Assembly (NCBI GenBank): GCA_000165345.1
Contig: CM000434.1
Span: forward strand, 672,001 to 736,000
Reading direction: 5' to 3'
DNA length: 64,000 nucleotides
The notes beneath the pieces are model-generated. The model was not told the DNA's origin. It was given only the letters and a program-made list of their open reading frames with translations, and did no database searches. Position 1 is the stretch's first letter; every line of letters starts with the position of its first letter. Position numbers and translations under genes: made by a program. Of the stretch, positions 13,825 through 57,969 are shown piece by piece.

Positions 13825-13834
13825 ATACCGGTAT
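13825..13834. promoter_or_regulatory. Palindromic ATACCGGTAT element, 237 bp upstream of the BI-1 ATG.
   Basis: Exact 10-bp palindrome. It belongs to a family seen at 24730, 57960, 36661, 29274 and 48841. Confidence 0.35.
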
Positions 13835-14079
13835 GTGAGCGTCTTGTCTACTGACTTTTAAAAATATTTATTAATGGCAGGAAAGAAATGGAATTTTGTT
13901 ATTGGGCGGGAATTGTTGGAAGTGGTGGGAAAATTGGTGTGTTAGGTATGAATTACGTGTTTGAGCGGCAATTTCATGCAAGTTAGGGTTGGATGGGGGG
14001 ACTAGAGGGAAGAGGGTGCGAATATGCAGTGGTTGTAGCAATACAGTGCATGCATGTGTTTACAATGAACATGTAGGGA

Positions 14080-14200
14080 AGAAGTGAAAAGAGAGGAGAG
14101 AAAAGGAGAGGAAAACGAGAGTAAAGAGATGAGGGGAGTGAGAAAGAGAAAGAGAGAGAGAGAGAGAGAGAGAGAGAGAGAGAGGAAAGAAAAATCATTA
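14080..14200. repeat. Polypurine tract containing a (GA)19 microsatellite at about 14147-14184.
   Basis: agagagagag... read directly. It lies in the 3' flank of the TyrRS gene, and the GA strand is the plus strand. Confidence 0.85.
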
Positions 14201-14258
14201 TTAAGGATAAAAAGCTAATATAGCAGTTATTTTCAAGAGTTCAAGTATTGATGAACAA

Positions 14259-15389
14259 TTACTTGGTGACTTTGAATGACTGAACAAGCTGTAAAAGCTC
14301 TTTGGCCCTAGGGTCAGTATTAAAATGGTCACGAATTGGTTGTAGCATAAGGTTCAAAGCGTCAGAAAGACCTTTTTTCAAATCACCAGGGTGAAGATCG
14401 CCACTAAGATAAGCCTTATGGAAATCTTCTTTATTGGTAAAGGTGATATCACCACCATACTCTTCTTTTCTAGAAACATGGAAATGACCGAATTTGGGGA
14501 ATACTAGAGTATTAATATATTCAATGCATGGATTTCCTTCAATAATGCCTGGAGGACAGAAAGCCTTTTTAATTTTTTTAACAACAGCTTCAGGAGTATC
14601 TTCAACAAATATTGCAGAAGAAGTGTCAGATTTTGACATTTTTTCTTGTCCTTCAAGTAACCCAGGAAGCATCTTATGGGAAAGGATTACAGGTTTATGT
14701 TTGATTCCAGCTGCATCACAGTATTCTCTAGCAAGCATGTTAACTTTTCTTTGATCCATACCTAACTGGCAAATATCTGCCTTGAGTTGGAATATATCAG
14801 CACATTGCATGCATGGATAAAATACTGAAGCACACGGTTGTTCATCATTTTCTTGTCTTCCCATAATTTGGCAACATCTTTTAATTCTAGTAATATTAAA
14901 CTTTCTAGAAATATCAAAAACTCTTAACCAATACTCATTAGAATCTTCCCCATTAATAAAATCAGATGCCCAAACAAATCTTACATTTGTCATATCCATT
15001 CCTGCAGCCTTCCATATGTGAACGAAATATTCACCAACAATCTTAATTTTTTCAAGATCACCACCCATCTTATTATTGAGCAGAGCAAACCAATCTGCTA
15101 CGTAGAATACAAAAACGCATCCGCATTCAGTTAACTTATTTACATTAATAGTCTTTAATATACATTGAGCAATATGCATTCTTCCTGAAGGTTCAAATCC
15201 ATCATAACAAATTGGATGTTCTTTTCTCTTTAATAATTCCAACAATTCTGCTTCTTGAATACATTCTTCACCAACTGATAAACATAACTTATGTCTTTCC
15301 TCCAAAGTTAACTTTGATCTTTTCAATGGCTCTTCACTTCCTTTCAAAATGTATTTGGGGATAGTTTCAGTACAACTATTAGATGACAT
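14259..15389 (-). CDS. TyrRS: Tyrosyl-tRNA synthetase, class I, eukaryotic/archaeal type.
   Basis: PSGRMHIAQ corresponds to the HIGH region, and the KMSKS motif is present. The C-terminal KKAFCPPG...GDLHPGDLK...LQPIRDHFNT lines up with human YARS KKAFCEPG...VVHPGDLK...LDPIREKFNT. Confidence 0.9.
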   Translation of the reverse strand: MSSNSCTETIPKYILKGSEEPLKRSKLTLEERHKLCLSVGEECIQEAELLELLKRKEHPICYDGFEPSGRMHIAQCILKTINVNKLTECGCVFVFYVADWFALLNNKMGGDLEKIKIVGEYFVHIWKAAGMDMTNVRFVWASDFINGEDSNEYWLRVFDISRKFNITRIKRCCQIMGRQENDEQPCASVFYPCMQCADIFQLKADICQLGMDQRKVNMLAREYCDAAGIKHKPVILSHKMLPGLLEGQEKMSKSDTSSAIFVEDTPEAVVKKIKKAFCPPGIIEGNPCIEYINTLVFPKFGHFHVSRKEEYGGDITFTNKEDFHKAYLSGDLHPGDLKKGLSDALNLMLQPIRDHFNTDPRAKELLQLVQSFKVTK

Positions 15390-55952: not shown

Positions 55953-55983
55953 ATACTCCTAAAATATAAATATCTTCAAGTAA

Positions 55984-57660
55984 TTATAGAATATCTAAAA
56001 TAAATGGAAAAACATGAGAATTATCTGGTTTATGTACAAGATCATATTCACTTGGCTTTTCTGAAGGAGGATCAAATTTTGGAAGAATAATAAATCCATC
56101 TTGATCTTTCTCAAAATTATTCTTATTATCAGTACTTCTTGAAGATGATGAATATTTACTGGATTTCTTATAACCATTTCCTTCTATCCTATTTTCACTC
56201 CAAGGTGATGGTAAAAAGTGATTTCCAAGTTCTGGTAATGGTGTTTTATTACCATTATATGCACCATGCATTGTTTCTCTATAAAATTTATAAAGATGAA
56301 GCTGAGGATCAGATTGTACAAAACTTGGAAAACTTTCATCAAATCTTCTATCTCTACGAAATCTATAATAATACAAGTCAACAAGATCTTGATGAGAAAA
56401 TCTATTTTGTTTTCTAAGATCAATCTTTCTTAAGAATTCTATTTGATTTGGTGATAAATCTCTTGGCTCCAAATTCCCCCAACAATAATATGGTGAATTT
56501 CTATTTGAAATCCCATATATTATTTCATCAGAATCTCCCTTACCAAATTCTACAGGTTTTGGATCTAAAATACCAATAGTACCAAGTTGTTGCTTATTTA
56601 ATGGTAAATCTGTATAGTAAATTAATCCACAATCAAAACATTGAAGTATAATAGTATCAGGTGGTATTTCTATTGAAGATACTGGGAAATGTGGCATATT
56701 TTCAAATTTGTTTTTATTATTATAATTTGGAATTTCTCTATTATCTAAATCAAAGGCATTAACTAATTGAAATAATACATCCATAAATATTTTCCCTGTA
56801 ATACCTAATATATTTATTGCTCCTTTAATATTCGAACAAGTATTATTCATACAAGTAATTGGAGATAATTCTTCACTAAATAATGGTCTTTTATTATTGA
56901 CTAATGATCCACTATTCCTTTTAAATTCTTGAATTAAAGCATTTTCTTTTACTTTATTATTTGATTCTTTTCTTTCTGAAGATTTAATACTAAACATGGA
57001 CTTTAATTGATCATTGGATTCATTTACACCAACAATATTATTATGAGATGATGGTATATTATTAACAATATTTTTACTAATAGAGTTAAGTATTTTTTCA
57101 TCTCTAACAACAACTTTGGAATTATTAGCTCTTCTTTCATTTGCCAAAGTATTATATCTTTCAACTTTATAATAGTCTCCTAAAACTCCTAGAAGACTAC
57201 CATTACTAATACTACTGCATTGACTAAGAATACATGAATTTTTTTGTGATGATAATGGCGATGGAGATGGCGAGGGCGATGATGATGATGAAGATATTAA
57301 TGGTGATGGCGCTTTACCTTGAGTTCTTTTAAATTGTTGACTTTTTCTTAATTCATTGCTCATTCTTAATCTTTCACTATATTCATCACTTCCCATACTA
57401 ATACTATTATATATTGGAGCTCCTGTTAATGAATGAATTGGAGTATATCTAACATGATTATCACTATTAGATAATAAAGGAGGTTGGTTAGAATTTGAAC
57501 TGGAAGATGATACAATATTAGAAACTTTTGATTCATTATTATGTTCAACAGGAATATTTCCTAATCCTTCATTTAAAGATCCATTTTGAAAGAAATAGTT
57601 TGGTAATATTTGACTATTTCTTGAAATAGAAGAAGAAGCTGATAAAAAAGATGAGCTCAT
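55984..57660 (-). CDS. Ser-rich hypothetical protein, 558 aa, with an SPSPSPSP tract.
   Basis: Uninterrupted ORF; I recognise no domain. Confidence 0.55.
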   Translation of the reverse strand: MSSSFLSASSSISRNSQILPNYFFQNGSLNEGLGNIPVEHNNESKVSNIVSSSSSNSNQPPLLSNSDNHVRYTPIHSLTGAPIYNSISMGSDEYSERLRMSNELRKSQQFKRTQGKAPSPLISSSSSSPSPSPSPLSSQKNSCILSQCSSISNGSLLGVLGDYYKVERYNTLANERRANNSKVVVRDEKILNSISKNIVNNIPSSHNNIVGVNESNDQLKSMFSIKSSERKESNNKVKENALIQEFKRNSGSLVNNKRPLFSEELSPITCMNNTCSNIKGAINILGITGKIFMDVLFQLVNAFDLDNREIPNYNNKNKFENMPHFPVSSIEIPPDTIILQCFDCGLIYYTDLPLNKQQLGTIGILDPKPVEFGKGDSDEIIYGISNRNSPYYCWGNLEPRDLSPNQIEFLRKIDLRKQNRFSHQDLVDLYYYRFRRDRRFDESFPSFVQSDPQLHLYKFYRETMHGAYNGNKTPLPELGNHFLPSPWSENRIEGNGYKKSSKYSSSSRSTDNKNNFEKDQDGFIILPKFDPPSEKPSEYDLVHKPDNSHVFPFILDIL

Positions 57661-57959
57661 TTGTATTATTATTATTATTATTATATTAATTGAAGTAAAA
57701 AAGTGATAATTTAAGTAATTTATTATATAATTCTTTAATAATTAATTAGTTAATTAATATTAATAATTTTGTTTTATTTTCACAGATTTATCAATTAATC
57801 AATTAATTTATTTACTTATTATTATGTAATATTAAGTAAATTTAGCTTCAAATGTTTCTTAATCTAATCAATTTACTTTCATTATTTCCCTTTAATTTTA
57901 ATCTTTTTTTTAGAAAAAAAAAATTCTCACACACATGCCGTTATAAACCTAAAAATTCT

Positions 57960-57969
57960 ATACCGGTAT
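57960..57969. promoter_or_regulatory. ATACCGGTAT palindrome 300 bp upstream of the ATG of the 55984-57660 gene.
   Basis: Read directly: ctataccggtatccacgtc. Confidence 0.35.

What the first reader, a model, noticed from the sequence alone, without database searches (positions are those of the whole stretch)
13825..57969. Recurrent palindromic ATACCGGTAT / TATACCGG[T/C]AT element in upstream spacers of seven genes
The exact 10-bp palindrome ATACCGGTAT occurs at 13825, 24730 and 57960. Close variants are TATACCGGTT at 36661 and TATACCGGCATT twice, at 29274 and 48841. All lie in non-coding DNA 150-550 bp upstream of an ATG, for BI-1, the RCC1 gene, the TPR gene, the 36998 secreted gene, the Ser-rich gene at 57660 and the MK-STYX-like gene. 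Several sit within 30-100 bp of an E2F-like GGCGG box (24761, 36692, 29316). In DNA of about 30% GC a given 8-mer with four G/C should occur roughly once in this window on both strands. The 8-mers TATACCGG and ACCGGTAT together occur about 8 times and are biased to promoters. A palindrome suggests a dimeric DNA-binding factor. It is not one of the Cryptosporidium motifs I can name (E2F, GCATGC/AP2, CAAT, GAGA).
Basis: seen in the sequence. Interest (0 to 1): 0.6.

Follow-up and report, generated by a model that had tools for sequence, protein, structure and literature searches.

The report
Conserved ATACCGGTAT promoter motif in Cryptosporidium
A short palindromic DNA word, (T)ATACCGG(T/C)AT, recurs in the spacers upstream of genes on Cryptosporidium parvum chromosome 6 and is kept at the same places in several other Cryptosporidium species, so it is very probably a binding site for a gene-regulatory protein that is not in the motif lists I could search for this parasite.

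Summary
ATACCGGTAT occurs three times (13825, 24740 rather than 24730, and 57960) against 0.01 expected. With one mismatch allowed there are 10 matches against 0.62 expected. The window is C. parvum chromosome 6 (about cgd6_2960 to cgd6_3150).

I fetched orthologous loci from six other species: chipmunk genotype I, C. ubiquitum, C. canis, C. felis, C. ryanae and C. bovis. The TACCGG core is kept in the orthologous spacer in 16 of 28 cases, against 6 of 48 where C. parvum lacks it. That matches the retention of E2F hexamers. Two sites (36661, 57960) are kept in every species for which I had that spacer.

The extended word TACCGGYAT is about 13 times denser in intergenic DNA than in coding DNA. 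Four of six sites lie 28-41 bp upstream of an E2F-like box. Two others follow a conserved AGACAAGACG partner.

The motif is absent from the C. parvum motif studies and review I could search (2007-2025). The same palindrome is a predicted promoter motif in oomycetes.

Best reading: an uncatalogued cis-regulatory protein-binding site whose factor is unknown (Myb-type or ApiAP2 are the leads). This is a new member of a known kind, of moderate interest. No genome-wide test was possible.

The parts
13825..13834 (.). ATACCGGTAT palindrome in the tandem spacer upstream of BI-1 (cgd6_2960-like, minus strand). The CCGG core is 243 bp upstream of the ATG.
   Evidence: Not retained in the C. ryanae orthologous spacer. 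Other species were not sampled for this site.
13840..13851 (-). Partner element CGTCTTGTCTAC (gene-sense GTAGACAAGACG), 5 bp from the palindrome.
   Evidence: AGACG-N2-8-TACCGG occurs twice in the window against 0.00 expected.
24739..24750 (.). TATACCGGTATT, with its CCGG core 144 bp upstream of the RCC1-domain gene (cgd6_3030) ATG. It is flanked by GCAATTGCATG and followed 28 bp later by GGCGG (24771).
   Evidence: CCGGTATTGCAA is invariant in C. parvum, chipmunk genotype I, C. ubiquitum and C. canis. It is lost in C. felis, C. ryanae and C. bovis.
29274..29285 (+). TATACCGGCATT, about 150 bp upstream of the RPAP3-like gene (cgd6_3040) and about 55 bp after the RCC1 stop. TTGGCGGG lies 41 bp downstream.
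   Evidence: Not retained in any other species sampled, so this is a lineage-specific site.
36661..36672 (+). TATACCGGTTTG, with its CCGG core 333 bp upstream of the 599-aa signal-peptide protein gene (cgd6_3070). It sits in a module of TGCATGCAAAT, TTGCA, TACCGG, then about 30 bp, then TTTCCCGCC.
   Evidence: TACCGG is retained in all five other species for which I had this spacer, including C. ryanae and C. bovis.
48841..48852 (+). TATACCGGCATT, abutting TGCATGCA (48853-48860). Its CCGG core is 550 bp upstream of the 377-aa phosphatase-like gene (minus strand). An E2F-like box lies 37 bp on the gene-proximal side (48808).
   Evidence: Retained in C. ubiquitum and C. canis, not in C. felis or C. 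ryanae.
57959..57970 (.). TATACCGGTATC, with its CCGG core 306 bp upstream of the 558-aa gene (cgd6_3130-like, minus strand).
   Evidence: GATACCGGTAT is invariant in C. parvum, C. ubiquitum, C. canis, C. felis and C. ryanae.
57973..57984 (-). Partner element CGTCTTGTCTCC (gene-sense GGAGACAAGACG), 3 bp from the palindrome.
   Evidence: GAGAC(A/G)AGACGT(G/A)GATACCGGTAT is nearly invariant over five species, while the flanks are not conserved.
57935..57943 (-). Degenerate second copy, TAACGGCAT in C. parvum. The orthologous position reads TACCGGCAT in C. ubiquitum and C. canis, and CCGGTAT in C. felis.
45178..45249 (-). Two motif copies (gene-sense ATACCGGTAA and AATACCGGTG) inside the CDS of the roughly 1500-aa gene, at codons 350 and 371. 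They lie in a promoter-like module that also holds a G-box and TGCATG repeats.
   Evidence: Both copies are retained in C. ubiquitum, C. canis and C. felis. The two 20-codon windows covering them have the highest third-codon-position identity in the gene (0.68 and 0.67, against a gene mean of 0.47).
52098..52103 (-). CCGGTA hexamer (ACCCCGGTAAT) in the divergent 2.65-kb spacer. This is a doubtful member.
   Evidence: C. felis and C. ryanae keep CACACCC but not CCGGTA, and the extended consensus is absent.

Best explanation
(T)ATACCGG(T/C)AT is a cis-regulatory protein-binding site in Cryptosporidium promoters.

The proposed mechanism is as follows. A sequence-specific DNA-binding protein recognises the TACCGG core plus YAT. 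It binds either as a homodimer on the full palindrome or as a monomer on one half-site. It binds in either orientation, in the gene-upstream part of the spacer. It usually sits 28-41 bp distal to an E2F/DP box and next to TGCAT(GC) AP2-type sites. In a second architecture it sits 3-5 bp from an AGACAAGACG partner. From there it contributes to promoter activity, either as an activator or as a general promoter-organising factor.

Shown here: non-random recurrence, intergenic specificity, an extended consensus found only outside coding DNA, retention at orthologous positions across the intestinal Cryptosporidium species sampled, a fixed relation to E2F-like boxes, and independence from orientation.

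Inferred only: that a protein binds, which protein, and the effect on transcription. The leading guesses for the factor are a Myb-type protein, or an ApiAP2 that gave no motif on protein-binding microarrays.
For: Recurrence:
- 3 exact and 10 one-mismatch matches, against 0.01 and 0.62 expected.
- ATACCGG is the only top-ranked non-coding 7-mer not explained by poly-A, GAGA, AP2, E2F or G-box motifs.
- ATACCGGTAT is one of about 11 recurring non-coding 10-mers. Most of the others belong to the AP2 or E2F families.

Compartment:
- Pooled over seven species, the TACCGG hexamer occurs 41 times in intergenic DNA against 10.6 expected.
- TACCGGYAT occurs 18 times in 78 kb of intergenic DNA and 4 times in 223 kb of CDS (binomial p = 6e-8). 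Three of the four CDS hits are one conserved intragenic module.
- Intergenic TACCGG hexamers carry flank preferences (A at -1, Y-A-T at +6 to +8). CDS hexamers do not.

Conservation:
- The core is retained in orthologous spacers in 16 of 28 cases, against 6 of 48 where C. parvum lacks it (p = 5.7e-5). This is similar to the E2F hexamer GGCGCC, at 12 of 21 against 6 of 55.
- Site 57960 is invariant over five species as GAGACAAGACGTGGATACCGGTAT within unconserved flanks.
- Site 36661 is kept in all six species for which I had that spacer.
- Inside a CDS, the two copies coincide with the only stretch where third-codon positions are as conserved as first and second positions. That points to a constraint on the DNA itself rather than on the protein.

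Architecture:
- An E2F-like box lies 28-41 bp on the gene-proximal side of 4 of 6 sites (P = 4.5e-4).
- Non-palindromic sites occur in both orientations relative to the gene. That fits DNA recognition rather than an RNA signal.

Precedent:
- TACCGGTA (M94) and ATACCGGTAT (streme-5) are predicted promoter motifs in the oomycetes Phytophthora infestans and Plasmopara halstedii (PMC3597505; PMC10031896).
- The P. infestans Myb protein PITG_08960 prefers [A/T/C/G]ACCGGTC 8-mers on a protein-binding microarray (PMC11267843 supplement).
Against: - No binding or expression data were available.
- Only 64 kb of C. parvum and about 240 kb of orthologous sequence were examined, so genome-wide enrichment is untested.
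- The motif is absent from published genome-wide motif screens. It is also not among the top three motifs reported in sporozoite ATAC-seq peaks. It may therefore be less common genome-wide than in this window.
- One site (29274) is not conserved even in the closest sampled species. Site 13825 is absent in C. ryanae.
- Three downstream genes fall in different expression clusters of Oberstaller et al. 2013 (clusters 14, 77 and 117). There is therefore no sign of a shared stage-specific programme.
- All strong sites lie in head-to-tail spacers. In 4 of 6, the first A[AG]TAAA hexamer after the upstream gene lies beyond the motif. A role at the 3' end of the upstream gene is therefore not excluded.
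Confidence: 0.7

Rival explanations
1. The motif is a boundary or termination element rather than an activator site. A Reb1/TTF-I-like Myb-type general regulatory factor binds between closely packed tandem genes, excludes nucleosomes and blocks read-through from the upstream gene.
For: All six strong sites lie in head-to-tail spacers, roughly mid-spacer. About 6 of 14 tandem spacers in the window carry a site. The downstream genes share no function and no expression cluster, as expected for a general factor. From my own knowledge, the yeast Reb1 site TTACCCG resembles TACCGG. A Myb protein with an ACCGGT preference exists in an oomycete.
Against: No Reb1 or TTF-I orthologue was examined. The core differs from TTACCCG. 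The tight spacing to the downstream E2F box and the intragenic copies fit a promoter component at least as well. Counts are too small to compare tandem with divergent spacers.
Confidence: 0.15
2. The word has no function of its own. It recurs by chance, and it looks conserved only because whole promoter blocks around it (AP2 and E2F sites) are conserved.
For: After correcting for all possible 7-mers, the window-only statistic is weak (about 6 distinct non-coding sites against 0.8 expected). In the RCC1 promoter the entire roughly 80-bp block is conserved, not just the motif. Site 29274 is not conserved. The CCGGTA at 52098 rides on another conserved element.
Against: In the 558-aa gene promoter the motif and its partner form an island of invariance in otherwise unalignable flanks, out to C. 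ryanae. The same word is independently retained in unrelated promoters. The extended consensus is found almost only outside coding DNA. Retention equals that of E2F sites.
Confidence: 0.08
3. It is an RNA-level signal (UTR element or part of a small RNA), or the remnant of a repeat or mobile element.
For: Some sites could lie within the 3' UTRs of upstream genes. The two intragenic copies are transcribed.
Against: The window has no Rfam or tRNA hits. The sites share no similarity beyond about 12 bp, or about 25 bp with the partner element, so they are not copies of a repeat. A loop-less 10-bp palindrome cannot form a stable hairpin. Non-palindromic variants occur in both orientations relative to the transcribed strand.
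Confidence: 0.04

Closest known systems
Oomycete promoter motif M94 TACCGGTA (Phytophthora infestans, Roy et al. 2013, PMC3597505), GTACCGGTA (Seidl et al. 2012) and streme-5 ATACCGGTAT (Plasmopara halstedii, PMC10031896)
   Same: The palindromic core is identical, and in Plasmopara the 10-mer is identical. In both groups the motif is over-represented upstream of genes. In Phytophthora it was listed among the 'high-confidence' predicted sites, those showing interspecific conservation, positional or orientation bias, or palindromy. Its binding factor is unknown there too. Both lineages belong to the SAR supergroup.
   Different: The lineage is a stramenopile rather than an apicomplexan. In oomycetes the motif is linked to promoters induced in germinated cysts and hyphae and to effector genes. 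Here there is no shared function or expression cluster. Whether the binding factors are homologous is untested, so the identity of the word may be coincidence.
Catalogued C. parvum promoter motifs: E2F ([A/T][C/G]GCGC[G/C][A/T], GGCGGGAA), AP2_1 (TGCATGCA), AP2_2 (GCACAC), G-box, GAGA, CAAT-box (Oberstaller et al. 2013; 2025 review, PMC12246861)
   Same: The location (intergenic, upstream), the degree of over-representation in the window, and the degree of cross-species retention are all comparable. The motif co-occurs with E2F and AP2_1 sites within the same roughly 80-bp modules.
   Different: The sequence differs. None of the 25 motifs in Oberstaller et al. 2013 contains the core, and neither do the ApiAP2 microarray motifs described in the text I could read. 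No factor has been assigned.
Myb-binding sites: canonical YAACNG (TAACGG), and the protein-binding-microarray preference of P. infestans Myb PITG_08960 (NACCGGTC; PMC11267843 supplement)
   Same: TACCGG differs from TAACGG by one base. One orthologous copy reads TAACGG in C. parvum and TACCGG in C. ubiquitum and C. canis. A Myb protein from another SAR lineage selects ACCGGT or ACCGGC cores. The sister oomycete palindrome TACATGTA is bound by the MYB-related protein PsMyb37 (PMC11134190).
   Different: The PITG_08960 flank is ...GGTC, not ...GGTAT. No Cryptosporidium Myb protein has a known specificity, and none was compared here.
Plant DRE/CRT element TACCGACAT, bound by DREB/CBF AP2/ERF proteins (from my own knowledge)
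   Same: TACCGGCAT (29276, 48843) differs from TACCGACAT at a single base. ApiAP2 domains are homologous to plant AP2/ERF domains. The 2025 review lists five C. parvum ApiAP2 proteins as giving no DNA binding on protein-binding microarrays.
   Different: The DRE core CCGAC is not present. None of the C. parvum AP2 microarray motifs listed in the review resembles this word. The resemblance is recalled from memory and was not tested.

Membership tests
E2F/DP binding site | Core [C/G]GCGC[G/C] or GGCGGG flanked by T/A runs | tested here: not met
   The motif core is ACCGGT or ACCGGC, with no GCGC or GGCGG. E2F-like boxes are separate elements 28-41 bp away.
AP2_1 (TGCATGCA) and other catalogued C. 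parvum motifs (AP2_2, G-box, GAGA, CAAT, the 25 motifs of Oberstaller et al. 2013) | Match to the published consensus | tested here: not met
   No published consensus contains TACCGG or CCGGTA. TGCAT elements are adjacent to the motif but distinct from it.
Oomycete M94 / streme-5 motif (TACCGGTA / ATACCGGTAT) | Palindromic TACCGGTA core | tested here: met
   TACCGGTA is at 13826, 24741, 45241 and 57961. Other sites carry TACCGGCA or TACCGGTT.
Oomycete M94 / streme-5 motif (TACCGGTA / ATACCGGTAT) | Over-representation in promoters and conservation in related species | tested here: met
   for Cryptosporidium. for the oomycete reports.
Oomycete M94 / streme-5 motif (TACCGGTA / ATACCGGTAT) | Same or homologous binding factor | not testable with these tools
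   The factor is unknown in both lineages.
Myb-binding site | YAACNG core | tested here: not met
   The core is TACCGG (C instead of A at the third position). Only the degenerate copy at 57938-57943 reads TAACGG.
Myb-binding site | Bound by a Myb-domain protein | not testable with these tools
   The only support is an analogy: P. infestans PITG_08960 prefers ACCGGTC 8-mers.
DRE/CRT (AP2/ERF DREB site) | Core (A/G)CCGAC | tested here: not met
   The sites read CCGGC or CCGGT, never CCGAC.
Reb1-type general regulatory factor site | TTACCCG core | tested here: not met
   The consensus is ATACCGG, with one C fewer.
Reb1-type general regulatory factor site | Centred in the nucleosome-depleted region upstream of the transcription start site, and terminates upstream transcription | not testable with these tools
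   No transcription-start, nucleosome or ATAC-seq data were accessible. Poly(A)-hexamer positions are inconclusive.
Dispersed repeat or mobile-element terminus | Extended similarity between copies beyond the core | tested here: not met
   The flanks of the different sites are unrelated apart from the AGACAAGACG partner at two sites.

The most novel reading that the evidence does not exclude
ATACCGGTAT is the site of an ancient factor, probably Myb-type, shared by stramenopiles (oomycetes) and alveolates (Cryptosporidium). It acts as a general promoter-organising or insulating factor in compact genomes, including from within coding sequence (the intragenic module in the roughly 1500-aa gene). 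This factor-site pair would then have been conserved across the SAR supergroup and would add a new layer beside E2F and ApiAP2 in Cryptosporidium gene control.
Probability: 0.1. Interest if true: 0.75.

Novelty: new member of a known kind. Interest (0 to 1): 0.5.

Why it matters
Only about six promoter motif families are catalogued for Cryptosporidium, and their factors are limited to E2F/DP and some ApiAP2s. Most Myb, zinc-finger and several AP2 proteins have no known target.

This is a further motif conserved across the intestinal species sampled. It is present in roughly a third of the promoters in this window and tightly positioned next to E2F boxes. It gives a concrete bait for identifying a new regulator, for example by DNA pull-down, DAP-seq or a protein-binding microarray. 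It also gives a testable element for building or tuning transgene promoters in this hard-to-manipulate pathogen.

The identity with an oomycete promoter motif offers a cheap cross-lineage test of deep conservation of a regulator.

Tried and rejected
- Rfam (gathering threshold on the whole window; E-value mode on 51750-52250) and a tRNA scan found nothing.
- The 1-2976 region is not intergenic. It is the CDS of a minus-strand STAG-like gene, so the site at 407 is coding and was dropped.
- The site at 52098 was dropped as a bona fide member. C. felis and C. ryanae conserve the neighbouring CACACCC but not CCGGTA.
- Global multiple alignment of whole spacers across seven species was too noisy to score conservation, because distant species misalign. 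I replaced it with an alignment-free retention test and local alignments.
- The co-expression check was limited. Only three target genes could be mapped to the clusters of Oberstaller et al. 2013, and they fall in three different clusters.
- Bankier et al. 2003, the chromosome 6 octamer analysis, is not in the held library. I could not check whether the octamer was listed there. Later papers cite that study only for the AP2_1 and E2F motifs.
- Poly(A)-signal positions do not settle whether the motif belongs to the 5' or the 3' side of the spacer.
- The single look-up spent on site 13825 (C. ryanae) was negative.
- The hint that the 619-aa gene encodes an AP2 protein (the UniRef name of the C. 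xiaoi homologue) was not supported by Pfam and was not pursued.

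
Full report

Yes. ATACCGGTAT is present three times, at 13825, 24740 and 57960. Dinucleotide-preserving shuffles give 0.01 expected. TATACCGG occurs 7 times against 0.37 expected. The 10-mer with at most one mismatch occurs 10 times against 0.62 expected, and 0 of 100 shuffles reach 10. 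TATACCGGCATT is at 29274 and 48841, and TATACCGGTT is at 36661.

I ranked all k-mers in the non-coding part of the window. ATACCGG/CCGGTAT is the only top-ranked 7-mer that is not poly-A, GAGA, GCATGCA (AP2), E2F or G-box. Among non-low-complexity 10-mers recurring at three or more dispersed non-coding sites, ATACCGGTAT stands with the TGCATGCAAA and TTGGCGGGAA families. Taken alone and corrected for all possible words, the window statistic is only suggestive. The decisive evidence is comparative.

**2. Source and gene context**

The window is Cryptosporidium parvum chromosome 6. The RCC1-domain protein encoded at 24887-29221 matches C. parvum assemblies exactly. Cluster members carry C. parvum Iowa II accessions and CPHLJ_6g3040/6g3130 tags. 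The supplement of Oberstaller et al. 2013 confirms cgd6_3030 as the RCC1-domain protein and cgd6_3070 as a signal-peptide protein.

The six strong sites all lie in head-to-tail spacers. Their CCGG cores are 144-550 bp upstream of the next ATG. The downstream genes are BI-1, RCC1, the RPAP3-like gene, the 599-aa signal-peptide protein, the 377-aa phosphatase-like gene and the 558-aa gene.

Three other matches were set aside:
- The site at 407 lies inside a minus-strand STAG-like CDS.
- The site at 10976 is coding.
- The site at 52098 is only a CCGGTA hexamer attached to a different conserved element.

**3. Conservation in other species**

I found orthologues of two anchor proteins and of BI-1. 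With these I fetched syntenic loci from Cryptosporidium sp. chipmunk genotype I, C. ubiquitum, C. canis, C. felis, C. ryanae and C. bovis.

In spacers where C. parvum has TACCGG/CCGGTA, the orthologous spacer also has it in 16 of 28 cases. Where C. parvum lacks it, the figure is 6 of 48, close to the compositional expectation of 0.02-0.3 per spacer. Fisher p is 5.7e-5. That retention is like the E2F hexamers (GGCGCC, 12 of 21 against 6 of 55) and lower than GCATGC (21 of 23).

Flanking context identifies the retained sites as orthologous:
- **558-aa gene promoter.** GAGAC(A/G)AGACGT(G/A)GATACCGGTAT is nearly invariant in five species out to C. ryanae, inside unalignable flanks.
- **599-aa gene promoter.** TACCGG is kept in all six species for which I had that spacer, including C. 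ryanae and C. bovis, where the RCC1 protein is only 38-40% identical. It sits in a conserved order: TGCATGCAAAT, TTGCA, TACCGG, about 30 bp, then an E2F box.
- **RCC1 promoter.** CCGGTATTGCAA is invariant in four species and lost in the three most distant.
- **Site 48841.** It is kept in C. ubiquitum and C. canis.
- **Sites that turn over.** Site 29274 is specific to the C. parvum lineage. Site 13825 is absent from C. ryanae. New sites appear elsewhere in other species. For example, two TACCGGTA copies lie upstream of the 837-aa gene in C. ryanae. This turnover is typical of transcription-factor sites.

**4. Specificity for non-coding DNA**

Pooled over seven species, the bare hexamer occurs 41 times in intergenic DNA (10.6 expected) and 50 times in CDS (20.3 expected).

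Intergenic hexamers sit in an extended consensus: A at -1 in 26 of 39, Y at +6 in 29 of 39, A at +7 in 25 of 39, and T at +8 in 28 of 39. CDS hexamers show flat flanks.

The 9-mer TACCGGYAT occurs 18 times in 78 kb of intergenic DNA and 4 times in 223 kb of CDS, a 13-fold density difference. The binomial p of 6e-8 is inflated by orthology. Three of the four CDS hits belong to one conserved intragenic module.

**5. Architecture**

I oriented each site by its downstream gene.

- **Class I (RCC1, RPAP3-like, 599-aa and 377-aa genes).** The motif is preceded by or abuts TGCAT(GC). An E2F-like box follows 28, 41, 31 and 37 bp on the gene-proximal side. Four of six sites have such a box within 20-50 bp, against a mean of 0.46 for random intergenic positions (P = 4.5e-4).
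- **Class II (BI-1 and 558-aa genes).** AGACAAGACG sits 5 or 3 bp upstream of the full palindrome. AGACG-N2-8-TACCGG occurs twice against 0.00 expected. A further instance lies upstream of PABP in chipmunk genotype I. AAGACG matches 'motif 10' (RMGACG) of Oberstaller et al. 2013.

Non-palindromic variants occur in both orientations relative to the gene, which argues for recognition of DNA rather than RNA.

**6. An unexpected extra: copies inside a coding sequence**

Two motif copies lie inside the CDS of the roughly 1500-aa gene (ORF 41776-46296, minus strand), at codons 350 and 371. They sit in a stretch that looks like a promoter: ATGCGCAT, a GTGGGGAGG G-box, and TGCATGTGCAAGTGCATG.

All orthologues are annotated as a single open exon. 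The coding signature (second position more conserved than first, first more than third) holds on both sides. The two 20-codon windows that contain the motifs have the highest third-position identity in the gene, 0.68 and 0.67 against a mean of 0.47. Window 361-380 is the only one where the third position is at least as conserved as the first and second. Both TACCGG copies persist to C. felis.

This shows selection on the DNA word independent of the protein. It suggests an embedded internal or antisense promoter.

**7. Mechanism**

The best-supported reading (about 0.7) is a cis-regulatory protein-binding site in promoters that cooperates with or is positioned relative to E2F/DP and AP2 sites.

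The palindrome suggests a dimer. Because conserved sites often keep only one half, a monomeric half-site reader is equally possible.

The factor is unknown. Leads only:
- **A Myb-type protein.** TACCGG differs from the canonical TAACGG by one base. One orthologous copy switches between the two. A P. infestans Myb protein selects ACCGGTC on a protein-binding microarray. The sister oomycete palindrome TACATGTA is bound by a MYB-related factor.
- **An ApiAP2.** TACCGGCAT differs from the plant DRE TACCGACAT by one base (from my own knowledge). The 2025 review lists five C. parvum ApiAP2 proteins as non-binding on protein-binding microarrays.

Rivals:
- A Reb1-like boundary or termination site between tandem genes (0.15). 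It is not excluded, because all strong sites are in tandem spacers and poly(A) hexamers are uninformative.
- No function of its own, with conservation borrowed from neighbouring sites (0.08).
- An RNA element or repeat remnant (0.04).

**8. Comparison with what is known**

I searched the de novo motif studies of Mullapudi et al. 2007, Cohn et al. 2010 and Oberstaller et al. 2013 (main text and the held supplement), the main text of the ApiAP2 microarray study of 2014, the 2025 ATAC-seq preprint and the 2025 review table. None contains the word. Bankier et al. 2003 could not be read.

The closest known thing is in oomycetes: the predicted promoter motif TACCGGTA (M94) in P. infestans and ATACCGGTAT (streme-5) in Plasmopara halstedii. 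These are the same word, also without an assigned factor. Membership in the E2F, AP2_1, canonical Myb-site, DRE and Reb1 classes fails on the defining core sequence.

**9. Verdict**

The finding is real and most likely functional. It is a promoter motif that does not appear in the Cryptosporidium motif literature I could search, so it is a new member of a known kind.

Interest is moderate (0.5). It is useful and testable, with an intriguing cross-lineage echo and an intragenic instance. It is not mechanistically surprising, and its genome-wide prevalence and binding factor remain to be shown.

Noticed in passing
window 45100-45290 (minus-strand CDS of ORF 41776-46296): A promoter-like module lies inside a coding exon: ATGCGCAT, two TACCGG copies, a GTGGGGAGG G-box and TGCATGTGCAAGTGCATG. 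It is conserved to C. felis. It is the only part of the gene where third-codon positions are as conserved as first and second positions. It may be an internal or antisense promoter.
   Followed up: partly
window ~51856-52176 (2.65-kb divergent spacer between the 619-aa and 794-aa genes): A block of about 300 bp is strongly conserved out to C. ryanae (TTGGCGCC ... TATCTAATAATTAATGCATTAGACTGAGTTGCGGTATGACAGAC ... TTAGATAGGG ... CGTGGGGTATA). It has no Rfam match and no ORF of 30 aa or more. It could be an unannotated non-coding RNA, an upstream exon or UTR, or a dense regulatory region.
   Followed up: partly
window 13840-13851 and 57973-57984; L007 4542-4559: CGTCTTGTCT (gene-sense AGACAAGACG) sits 3-5 bp from the palindrome at two unrelated promoters. 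It is invariant across five species at one of them. It overlaps 'motif 10' (RMGACG) of Oberstaller et al. 2013. A similar pairing lies upstream of PABP in chipmunk genotype I.
   Followed up: partly
window 29282, 35430, 50961; and 22907, 41423, 53432: Two other 10-mers recur three times each in non-coding DNA: CATTCCAATA (CAAT-like, once directly abutting the motif at 29274) and CCACATAAAT.
   Followed up: no
window 49056-50915 (minus strand): The 619-aa ORF is not in the protein collection as an exact sequence. Its orthologues are 433-528 aa and cover only about half of it, so the true start is probably further downstream. UniRef names the C. xiaoi homologue 'AP2/ERF domain-containing', but Pfam finds no domain in the C. 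parvum protein.
   Followed up: no
L007 16824-16968 (chipmunk genotype I orthologue of the 1012-aa gene): A 36-bp tandem coding repeat (five copies seen, each containing CCGGTA) is present in this species, whose annotated protein is longer (1139 aa against 1012 aa). It inflates the CDS count of the hexamer.
   Followed up: no
L017 2927-3717 compared with window 13589-14258: The TyrRS/BI-1 spacer is GC-rich in C. ryanae. In C. parvum it is AT-rich with a long (CT)n tract. Spacer composition has diverged strongly between the two species.
   Followed up: no
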